From the NCBI GenBank assembly GCA_008080745.1, contig SHMX01000004.1, positions 150,001-182,000 of the forward strand: a stretch of 32,000 nt of DNA, given 5' to 3'. The notes beneath the pieces were generated by a model, which did not search any database, was not told the DNA's origin, and saw only the letters and a program-made list of their open reading frames with translations. This stretch comes from Candidatus Thorarchaeota archaeon (GTDB lineage: Archaea; Asgardarchaeota; Thorarchaeia; Thorarchaeales; Thorarchaeaceae). This document shows, piece after piece, positions 31,862 to 32,000 of this stretch (position 1 is the stretch's first letter; each line of letters opens with the position of its first letter). Both the position numbers and the translations under genes were made by a program.

Positions 31862-31999
31862 TTACAGGAGTGAATCTGACTTTTCAATTCGAGGCCCTTC
31901 TACAATATCATCAATTCTTGGATGTATGATTCTTTTCCAAAGTGGCGGAATTAATGCTAACCATATCATTCCAGCATATCCGGTTGGTAGTTGAGGACT
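31862..31999 (-). CDS. alkB: C-terminal fragment of an AlkB-type alkane 1-monooxygenase (gene continues beyond the window)
   Basis: Not in the ORF track. Minus-strand frame 31999-31862 reads SPQLPTGYAGMIWLALIPPLWKRIIHPRIDDIVEGPRIEKSDSLL*, matching the AlkB C-terminal signature (S/A)PxLP(S/T)GYxxMxxLAxxPPLW. Confidence 0.75.
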   Translation of the reverse strand, partial: SPQLPTGYAGMIWLALIPPLWKRIIHPRIDDIVEGPRIEKSDSLL

Positions 32000-32000
32000 T

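What the first reader, a model, noticed from the sequence alone, without database searches (positions are those of the whole stretch)
31862..32000. Hidden at the window edge: C-terminus of an AlkB-like alkane 1-monooxygenase in an Asgard-type archaeon
Seen: a 45-codon minus-strand frame open to the window edge, missed by the ORF track, encoding SPQLPTGYAGMIWLALIPPLW... Established: this motif follows the last His box of AlkB, an O2-dependent membrane di-iron alkane hydroxylase known mainly from aerobic bacteria. It ends soon after, so there is no fused C-terminal rubredoxin. Inference: O2-dependent hydrocarbon or lipid hydroxylation in a lineage usually considered anaerobic, or a horizontally acquired gene with another substrate.
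Basis: partly seen in the sequence, partly recalled or inferred. Interest (0 to 1): 0.72.

Follow-up and report, generated by a model that had tools for sequence, protein, structure and literature searches.

The report
Intact AlkB hydroxylase in Thorarchaeote
The 45-codon fragment is the tail of a complete, well-conserved gene for an oxygen-requiring AlkB alkane hydroxylase. One genus of otherwise anaerobic Thor-type Asgard archaea acquired it by horizontal transfer, so it is a known enzyme in an unexpected host, not a new kind of system.

Summary
Window 31862-31999 (-) holds the last 45 codons of a complete 359-aa ORF that runs 941 nt past the window edge (G000:C4:181865-182941).

It is a true AlkB:
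- E 6e-82 to a solved AlkB, and the AF2 model overlays it at TM 0.90.
- All nine iron-ligand His, the Glu and three substrate-positioning Leu are present.
- The chain-length gate is Val, the long-chain type.
- There is no rubredoxin fusion.

The host is a Thorarchaeote from marine sediment. The gene lies mid-way in a 417-kb contig, and an independent assembly bridges the locus.

The gene was gained. Ten other genera of the family have CysRS directly next to the TPR gene; only this genus has GNAT+AlkB inserted between them. Only 11 of 400 genomes of the phylum carry an AlkB-like gene. The Asgard copies form one clade nested among Desulfobacterota-type sequences, apart from classical aerobic AlkBs.

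dN/dS is 0.05, so the gene is kept in use. The genome has a resident rubredoxin, an NROR-like reductase and rubrerythrins. No terminal oxidase was found.

This anaerobe-associated clade has lost two conserved rubredoxin-docking arginines. The redox partner, the real substrate and the source of O2 are unresolved.

Other first readers of this scan flagged this same gene in the overlapping window and similar AlkB genes in other apparent anaerobes.

The parts
31862..32000 (-). 3' end (last 45 codons plus stop) of alkB. The complete 359-aa gene continues beyond the window to window-equivalent position 32941 (G000:C4:181862-182941; L001:2363-3442).
   Evidence: PDB AlkB 8f6t E 6e-82. Pfam PF00487 1.8e-34. 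AF2 pLDDT 90.3 and Foldseek TM 0.90 to 8f6t/8sbb.
30865..31830 (+). GNAT-family acetyltransferase (321 aa), convergent with alkB with a 31-bp gap. It was co-inserted with alkB in this genus. No functional link is shown.
   Evidence: Pfam Acetyltransf_1 1e-19. At this locus it is present only in G000 and G001.
29198..30634 (-). Cysteinyl-tRNA synthetase. It is the left anchor of the family-wide syntenic block into which GNAT+alkB were inserted, and a host marker for Thorarchaeota.
   Evidence: 70-74% identity to 'Candidatus Thorarchaeota archaeon' CysRS. (CysRS lies directly beside the TPR gene in 10 other genera).

Best explanation
The fragment is the C-terminus of an intact alkB gene. AlkB is a six-helix integral-membrane di-iron monooxygenase.

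Shown here:
- The protein has the complete AlkB catalytic apparatus: nine His and one Glu iron ligands, and three Leu that position the substrate's terminal methyl group.
- It has the AlkB fold.
- The chain-length gate residue is small (Val37).
- There is no fused rubredoxin.
- An ancestor of one Thorarchaeota genus gained the gene, together with a GNAT gene, by insertion between CysRS and a TPR gene.
- The Asgard AlkBs form one clade nested within Desulfobacterota-type bacterial sequences. The parsimonious history is one bacterium-to-Asgard transfer followed by spread among Asgard lineages.
- The gene is under strong purifying selection.

Inferred:
- It works like classical AlkB. A long (about C12 or longer) alkane or alkyl chain dissolved in the membrane slides into the hydrophobic tunnel. 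Two electrons reduce the di-iron centre, O2 is activated, and the terminal methyl group becomes a primary alcohol.
- Electrons probably come from resident, unlinked housekeeping proteins: the family-wide 52-aa rubredoxin fed by an NROR-like flavoprotein, or another small iron-sulfur protein.
- No terminal oxidase was found. O2 would therefore be a co-substrate used opportunistically at micro-oxic sediment interfaces, not a respiratory acceptor.
- The alcohol could enter generic alcohol dehydrogenase, aldehyde dehydrogenase and beta-oxidation enzymes that the genome has.
For: Identity:
- phmmer against the PDB finds only AlkB (8f6t 6e-82, 8sbb 2e-72).
- The AF2 model (pLDDT 90.3, pTM 0.90) overlays 8f6t and 8sbb at TM 0.90/0.89 and rmsd 2.2 A. 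The next hit has TM 0.47.
- Ligands His137/141/167/171/172/272/311/314/315 and Glu271 of FtAlkBG (PMC10113152) map to H121, H125, H152, H156, H157, H257, H295, H298, H299 and E256. L274/L315/L318 of FtAlkB (PMC10110569) map to L249, L289 and L292. All are invariant in the 61 sequences compared.
- The gate W55(GPo1)/W62/I54 maps to V37, a small residue that the papers associate with substrates of C12 and longer.

Genuine host gene:
- It lies at 182 kb in a 417-kb contig of typical GC.
- One independent 7,071-bp contig bridges CysRS to the methyltransferase with 0 differences and at the depth of the flanking contig.
- The same locus holds an 86%-identical copy in sister species G001.
- A TATA-like block is conserved upstream in both species.

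Gain:
- In 10 other genera of the family CysRS is adjacent to the TPR gene, without GNAT or AlkB between them.
- AlkB-like genes occur in 1 of 85 other family genomes and in 11 of 400 genomes of the phylum.
- The Asgard clade has support 97/88 and is nested in clades supported at 96/81, 98/90 and 99/96 that hold Thermodesulfobacteriota sequences (quick tree).

In use:
- dN/dS is 0.047. dN is 0.075, against 0.081 for CysRS, 0.145 for GNAT and 0.194 for TPR.

Possible partners and handling of O2:
- One canonical rubredoxin, present in 23 of 23 high-quality family genomes.
- A 395-aa flavoprotein whose best structural relatives are 3klj and 1xhc, and rubredoxin reductase 2v3a at 5.6e-30.
- Five rubrerythrin-domain hits and an NADH-oxidase-like protein.
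- Downstream enzymes: 5 acyl-CoA dehydrogenases, 2 aldehyde dehydrogenases and an Fe-ADH.
Against: - No activity or expression data exist. Only DNA runs from one marine-sediment study hold the locus.
- No cytochrome bd or heme-copper oxidase was found in five AlkB-bearing Asgard genomes. In genus g76 the gene sits beside 2-hydroxyacyl-CoA dehydratase-type genes, which are O2-labile. A steady O2 supply is therefore doubtful.
- No alk-operon partners lie next to the gene in any Asgard or Desulfobacterota locus examined.
- Two rubredoxin-docking arginines conserved in classical AlkBs are replaced throughout the anaerobe-associated clade. R148 (30/34 in aerobes) is basic in 0 of 27. R169 (32/34) is basic in 3 of 27. 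R287 is only partly kept. The resident rubredoxin may therefore not be the donor.
- Rubredoxin is not co-distributed with AlkB, so its presence is permissive only.
- The direction of the bacterium-to-Asgard transfer depends on an unproven root.
Confidence: 0.7

Rival explanations
1. The chemistry is the same (O2-dependent terminal hydroxylation), but the physiological substrate is not a free environmental alkane. The enzyme would modify a membrane-resident alkyl chain, either the cell's own or scavenged lipids or fatty acids. Alternatively it mainly consumes O2 as part of oxidative-stress defence, and not for carbon assimilation.
For: - The gene is always an orphan without alkane-pathway neighbours.
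- The hosts have no respiratory oxidase but have rubredoxin and rubrerythrin defence sets.
- The docking surface differs from that of catabolic AlkBs.
- It was co-inserted with an acetyltransferase of unknown role.
Against: - The tunnel-positioning leucines and gate residue are exactly those of alkane-oxidising AlkBs.
- No lipid-biosynthesis context is conserved. One KAS III-like neighbour was seen in a single bacterial locus only.
- O2 scavenging is already covered by other enzymes in these genomes.
Confidence: 0.22
2. The anaerobe-associated AlkB clade uses an oxidant other than free O2 (peroxide shunt, or O2 made internally such as from NO dismutation), or it catalyses a different reaction such as desaturation.
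For: - The clade is carried by strict anaerobes, including the isolate Desulfatibacillum alkenivorans and an anammox bacterium.
- It has clade-specific substitutions next to His boxes: EHN(R) to EHV(x), HF to HW, K126 to R.
Against: - Every first-shell ligand and the Glu proposed to protonate the second oxygen atom are invariant.
- No NO-dismutase or other O2-generating context was seen near the genes.
- No precedent for an O2-independent AlkB was found in the papers read.
Confidence: 0.05
3. The gene is a non-functional passenger of a horizontal transfer, or an assembly or binning artefact that does not belong to the archaeon.
For: - Its distribution is patchy.
- The bin contains a few high-GC contigs that look like contaminants.
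Against: - dN/dS is 0.047 and the frame is intact in two species.
- The gene lies mid-contig in 417 kb of Thorarchaeal synteny.
- An independent assembly bridges both junctions at uniform depth.
- In the Lokiarchaeial genome G183 the homologue lies between an RNA polymerase A'' gene and an L7Ae-family ribosomal protein gene.
Confidence: 0.03

Closest known systems
Fontimonas thermophila AlkB / AlkB-AlkG fusion (PDB 8sbb, 8f6t)
   Same: - About 40% identity over 351 aligned columns, TM 0.89-0.90, rmsd 2.2 A.
- The nine-His plus Glu di-iron site and the Leu triad are identical.
   Different: - No fused rubredoxin.
- About 40 residues shorter than typical aerobic AlkBs (median 356 against 397 aa).
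- Docking arginines R148 and R169 are replaced (M133, V154).
- The gate is Val, where 8sbb has Trp.
- The host is archaeal and no respiratory oxidase was found in it.
Pseudomonas putida GPo1 AlkB with AlkG/AlkT (alkBFGHJKL operon)
   Same: Same family and His boxes. The same three-component logic is possible, because the genome holds a rubredoxin and an NROR-like reductase.
   Different: - No operon; the candidate partners are unlinked housekeeping genes present in the family whether or not AlkB is.
- Val instead of W55 at the gate, which predicts longer substrates.
Uncharacterised AlkB homologues of anaerobe-associated bacteria (Desulfatibacillum alkenivorans DSM 16219, Desulfobacterales/Thermodesulfobacteriota MAGs, Candidatus Anammoxibacter)
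   Same: - Same clade (99/96 support), 46-55% identity, same short length.
- Same loss of R148/R169 and same orphan gene context.
   Different: They are bacterial. The Asgard copies form their own subclade (97/88), and the Thorarchaeal branch is long (0.77).
Other FADS-like membrane di-iron enzymes (XylM, stearoyl-CoA desaturase, Scs7p)
   Same: Pfam FA_desaturase and His-box di-iron chemistry.
   Different: The fold search returns only AlkB structures at high TM. The NYxEHYG motif and the AlkB-specific ninth His are present. It is not a desaturase-type member.

Membership tests
AlkB (alkane 1-monooxygenase, integral-membrane di-iron hydroxylase) | Four His-rich motifs that provide nine His ligands, plus the Glu of NYxEHYG | tested here: met
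   H121, H125, H152, H156, H157, H257, H295, H298, H299 and E256 map onto the FtAlkBG ligands. They are invariant in 61 sequences.
AlkB (alkane 1-monooxygenase, integral-membrane di-iron hydroxylase) | AlkB-specific six-transmembrane-helix fold | tested here: met
   AF2 model pLDDT 90.3, pTM 0.90. Foldseek gives 8f6t TM 0.90 and 8sbb TM 0.89 at rmsd 2.2 A; the next hit has TM 0.47.
AlkB (alkane 1-monooxygenase, integral-membrane di-iron hydroxylase) | Significant full-length sequence homology to biochemically characterised AlkBs | tested here: met
   E 6.1e-82 and 2.2e-72 over residues 23-347. Pfam PF00487 at 120 bits against a cut-off of 29.7.
AlkB (alkane 1-monooxygenase, integral-membrane di-iron hydroxylase) | Hydrophobic substrate tunnel with conserved Leu triad and a chain-length gate residue | tested here: met
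   L249, L289 and L292 are conserved. The gate is V37, with I110 and V114 at the restriction site. This predicts long-chain substrates.
AlkB (alkane 1-monooxygenase, integral-membrane di-iron hydroxylase) | Basic surface patch that docks rubredoxin AlkG (the four Arg conserved in aerobic AlkBs: R148, R169, R215, R287) | tested here: not met
   Only R200 (=R215) and R271 (=R287) are kept in this protein. R148 becomes M and R169 becomes V. Across the 27 sequences of the anaerobe clade, R148 is basic in 0 and R169 in 3. The patch is a property of the studied complex, not a formal family criterion.
AlkB (alkane 1-monooxygenase, integral-membrane di-iron hydroxylase) | Rubredoxin and rubredoxin reductase available in the genome | tested here: met
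   A 52-aa CxxC...CPxC rubredoxin at G000:C8:32291-32431. A 395-aa NROR-like flavoprotein at G000:C4:132312-133496. Both are unlinked to alkB, and rubredoxin is family-wide.
AlkB (alkane 1-monooxygenase, integral-membrane di-iron hydroxylase) | alk-type operon context (alkFGHJKL/alkT or a fused rubredoxin) | tested here: not met
   The neighbours are a GNAT, a TPR protein, a 94-aa ORF, a histidine kinase and a methyltransferase. No conserved partner is seen in other Asgard or bacterial loci. There is no fusion.
AlkB (alkane 1-monooxygenase, integral-membrane di-iron hydroxylase) | O2- and NAD(P)H-dependent terminal hydroxylation of n-alkanes | not testable with these tools
   This needs an enzyme assay. 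No RNA run is listed for the locus.

The most novel reading that the evidence does not exclude
The Asgard, Desulfobacterota and anammox sequences define an anaerobe-adapted AlkB subfamily. It is short, always encoded as an orphan gene, and has lost the conserved rubredoxin-docking arginines. This subfamily would have switched redox partner. It would let organisms with no detected aerobic respiration use trace O2 purely as a co-substrate to activate long-chain alkanes or lipid tails at oxic-anoxic interfaces. That would be an unrecognised oxygenase niche in 'strict anaerobes', including the closest archaeal relatives of eukaryotes.
Probability: 0.3. Interest if true: 0.7.

Novelty: new member of a known kind. 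Interest (0 to 1): 0.5.

Why it matters
AlkB is the textbook marker of aerobic alkane degradation. Genome surveys reported no alkB in archaea in 2014 (PMC4021335). In 2022, among 1,246 archaeal genomes, it was found only in one Nanoarchaeota MAG, with no Asgard representative (PMC9535955).

Here an intact, selected alkB sits in genuine Thor- and Loki-type Asgard chromosomes in which no terminal oxidase was found. It belongs to a wider clade carried by sulfate reducers and an anammox bacterium. Two things follow.
- Counting alkB in sediment metagenomes as 'aerobic bacterial alkane degraders' can be misleading.
- These anaerobes probably meet and use O2 at least transiently. This bears on the debate about the oxygen relations of Asgard archaea.

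It does not bear on eukaryote origins. The gene is a patchy, late horizontal acquisition, not an ancestral Asgard trait.

Tried and rejected
- Fragment alone against Pfam: no hit, as it is too short.
- NCBIfam: no specific model hit for the full protein, only a spurious 0.033 match.
- Complex prediction of AlkB (alignment A1) with the resident rubredoxin (alignment A2): verdict 'no answer', score 0.08 against a mark of 0.32. This is not evidence either way.
- The look-up of sequencing runs: only two DNA runs from one marine-sediment study hold the locus, and no RNA holder is listed. There is no information on expression.
- Co-distribution of rubredoxin with AlkB: rejected. Rubredoxin is in 74 of 86 family genomes, and in 23 of 23 high-quality ones.
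- Conserved neighbours as functional partners: none across Asgard families or bacterial relatives. Many crude ORFs in the high-GC bacterial loci had no Pfam hit and may be spurious.
- Compositional sign of recent transfer: none. The gene's GC of about 37-38% matches its surroundings.
- Sigma-70 promoter and intrinsic terminator scan: at chance level and not appropriate for archaea.
- Literature searches for AlkB in Asgard, Thorarchaeota, Lokiarchaeota or Desulfobacterota: no paper analysing these genes was found. One 'alkB' hit in a Promethearchaeota preprint is the DNA-repair AlkB. One 2025 paper mentions only in passing that Asgardarchaeota MAGs carry aerobic hydrocarbon-degradation genes (PMC11857318).
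- Rfam on the high-depth intergenic element near CysRS: no match.

Full report
**1. Observation**

The window is G000:C4:150001-182000. Beyond the edge the frame continues to an ATG and gives a 359-aa ORF, G000:C4:181865-182941, protein P0001. The fragment is residues 315-359. It begins 15 residues after the last His box.

**2. What the protein is**

- Pfam gives FA_desaturase as the only significant hit (1.8e-34).
- A search of all PDB sequences finds only two relatives, both alkane 1-monooxygenase AlkB of Fontimonas thermophila: 8f6t at 6e-82 and 8sbb at 2e-72, aligned over residues 23-347.
- An AlphaFold2 model built on 26 homologues is confident (pLDDT 90.3, pTM 0.90).
- The model superposes on both AlkB structures at TM 0.90/0.89 and rmsd 2.2 A. 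The next-best PDB chain reaches TM 0.47.

I mapped residues using the numbering of the two structure papers (PMC10113152; PMC10110569).

- The nine iron-ligand His and the Glu map to H121, H125, H152, H156, H157, H257, H295, H298, H299 and E256.
- The three Leu whose size is critical for positioning the terminal methyl group map to L249, L289 and L292.
- All of these are invariant in 12 Asgard, 15 anaerobe-associated bacterial and 34 classical sequences.
- The chain-length gate (W55 in GPo1, W62 in 8sbb, I54 in 8f6t) is V37. The other restriction-site positions are I110 and V114. In the cited mutagenesis work small residues at the gate go with substrates of C12 and longer.
- The protein ends at residue 359 with no rubredoxin domain.

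**3. Whose gene it is**

- Contig C4 is 416,703 bp with 39.9% GC, against about 41% for the genome. The gene lies at 182 kb. Local GC is unremarkable.
- The adjacent CysRS is 70-74% identical to proteins labelled Candidatus Thorarchaeota archaeon.
- The same-genus genome G001 is deposited as a Promethearchaeota MAG. It carries an 86%-identical copy at the syntenic site.
- The DNA occurs in two runs of one marine-sediment study. In their independent Logan assemblies a single 7,071-bp contig covers CysRS, GNAT, AlkB, TPR, the histidine kinase and the methyltransferase. It shows no differences and has the same depth as the flanking contig.
- Chimerism and mis-binning are therefore excluded for practical purposes.

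**4. Gain, not loss**

- I located orthologues of the TPR neighbour in the family and fetched flanks from ten genomes of ten other genera.
- All ten show the order ...g4 (LarA-like) - CysRS - TPR - 94-aa ORF, with CysRS directly beside TPR.
- Only G000 and G001 have GNAT+AlkB in between.
- AlkB-like genes were found in 1 of 85 other family genomes, and in 11 of 400 species genomes of the phylum. These belong to five GTDB families.

**5. Phylogeny**

- In a quick 99-row tree the Asgard sequences form one clade with SH-aLRT 100.
- In a careful 55-row tree (LG+C20 PMSF) the clade has UFBoot 97 / SH-aLRT 88 and appears in 96% of bootstrap trees.
- This clade is nested inside clades supported at 96/81, 98/90 and 99/96. 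Their other members are Thermodesulfobacteriota MAGs, Desulfatibacillum alkenivorans, a Candidatus Anammoxibacter MAG and unclassified sediment bacteria.
- All classical Actinomycetota, Pseudomonadota and Bacteroidota AlkBs lie on the other side of a 99/96 branch.
- If the root lies on that side (an assumption), the simplest history has three steps: one transfer from a Desulfobacterota-like bacterium into Asgard archaea, spread among Loki-type families, and a later transfer into the Thorarchaeal genus.
- Relationships inside the Asgard clade are unresolved.

**6. Is it in use?**

- Between G000 and G001, dN/dS is 0.047. dN is 0.075, as low as for CysRS (0.081). The co-inserted GNAT (0.145) and the TPR gene (0.194) evolve much faster.
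- A 16-nt block with a TTATA core is identical in both species. It is centred about 27 nt upstream of the second in-frame ATG, which fits an archaeal TATA box and a leaderless mRNA starting at M4. This is an inference.

**7. Electron supply and oxygen**

- In five AlkB-bearing Asgard genomes I found no cytochrome bd oxidase subunit I and no heme-copper oxidase subunit I. Positive controls rang in 9 of 14 reference genomes.
- AlkB is the only FA_desaturase-family gene in each of the five genomes.
- G000 has one canonical 52-aa rubredoxin.
- It has a 395-aa flavoprotein whose best solved relatives are 3klj and 1xhc, with Pseudomonas rubredoxin reductase 2v3a at 5.6e-30. From my own knowledge, 3klj and 1xhc are NAD(P)H:rubredoxin oxidoreductases.
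- It also has an NADH-oxidase-like protein and five rubrerythrin-domain hits.
- Rubredoxin is present in 23 of 23 high-quality family genomes. It is a resident protein, not a co-acquired partner.
- Generic enzymes for the product are present: 5 acyl-CoA dehydrogenases, 2 aldehyde dehydrogenases and an Fe-ADH.

**8. What differs from textbook AlkB**

- The gene is an orphan everywhere. The neighbours differ between Asgard families, and none is a redox partner or alcohol/aldehyde dehydrogenase.
- In genus g76 it follows two 2-hydroxyacyl-CoA dehydratase D-component genes.
- In G183 it lies between an RNA polymerase A'' gene and an L7Ae-family ribosomal protein gene.
- The whole anaerobe-associated clade is about 40 residues shorter than classical AlkBs.
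- FtAlkBG has six arginines that dock AlkG. Four of them are conserved in my 34 classical sequences: R148 30/34, R169 32/34, R215 29/34 and R287 29/34. In the 27 sequences of the anaerobe clade:
  - R148 is never basic (Pro or Met);
  - R169 is basic in 3 of 27;
  - R287 is basic in 7 of 12 Asgard and 4 of 15 bacterial sequences;
  - R215 is kept.
- The catalytic core is therefore conserved while the donor-docking face has diverged.

**9. Reading**

The best-supported reading is a working AlkB-type terminal hydroxylase for long alkyl chains. It was acquired horizontally and draws electrons from resident small iron-sulfur proteins. It would use O2 as a co-substrate when O2 is available. The physiological substrate, the donor and the ecological setting remain inferences.

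**10. Prior knowledge**

- NCBI's annotation pipeline already names these proteins 'alkane 1-monooxygenase' in Promethearchaeota and Lokiarchaeota MAGs.
- The surveys I could read report no Asgard alkB (PMC4021335; PMC9535955).
- One 2025 paper notes only in passing that Asgardarchaeota MAGs carry aerobic hydrocarbon-degradation genes (PMC11857318).
- Other first readers of this scan flagged the same gene in the overlapping window, and similar AlkB genes in other apparent anaerobes.
- My verdict is a new member of a known kind. The secondary and more interesting lead is that the anaerobe-associated subfamily may have changed its redox partner.

Noticed in passing
window 28858-29195: A non-coding element of about 310-338 nt between the LarA-like gene and CysRS. 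It has 48% GC against about 40% around it and a stable fold (z -4.06). Rfam gives no match. Its depth in the metagenome contigs is up to 20-fold higher. At least 12 near-full copies (85-96% identity) and several partial copies are dispersed over nine other contigs of G000. It is absent at this site in G001. It looks like a MITE-like or ncRNA repeat family.
   Followed up: partly
G000 contigs C14, C15, C17, C18, C19: Five short contigs (2.4-14.6 kb) have 62-65% GC against about 41% for the rest of the bin. They are probably contaminants.
   Followed up: no
window 8560-16413 (+): A giant 2,617-aa ORF with bacterial Ig-like (Big_1, Big_3_5), MG2 and prenyltransferase-toroid matches. It is probably a huge surface protein related to alpha-macroglobulins.
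   Followed up: no
window 25037-27388 (+): A 783-aa ORF with no Pfam match. It is missing from this otherwise syntenic block in G001 and in ten other genera, so it is a second lineage-specific insertion near alkB.
   Followed up: no
L095:7325-12169 (G305), also G307 and G309: In Lokiarchaeial genus g76, alkB lies on the same strand directly after two 2-hydroxyacyl-CoA dehydratase D-component genes and before a saccharopine-dehydrogenase-like NAD(P)-binding gene. An O2-requiring enzyme is thus encoded beside O2-labile radical-enzyme genes.
   Followed up: partly
L012 (G085:C418:1338-2342): A divergent AlkB-like gene (36-40% identity, very long branch) sits in another Asgard family (f14), outside the main Asgard clade. 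It may be a separate acquisition or subfamily.
   Followed up: no
L010 (G314) / P0041: The AlkB protein that NCBI labels 'Candidatus Bathyarchaeota archaeon' is identical to the one in G314, which the genome taxonomy used here places in the window's own (Asgard) phylum. The submitter's label is probably wrong.
   Followed up: no
L093:10943-10978 and L094:10898-10957: alkB and the divergent TPR gene are only 36 bp apart in G000 and 60 bp apart in G001 as called. TPR orthologues in other genera align only from about residue 13-25 onward. One or both start codons are therefore probably further downstream, for example M4 of AlkB.
   Followed up: partly
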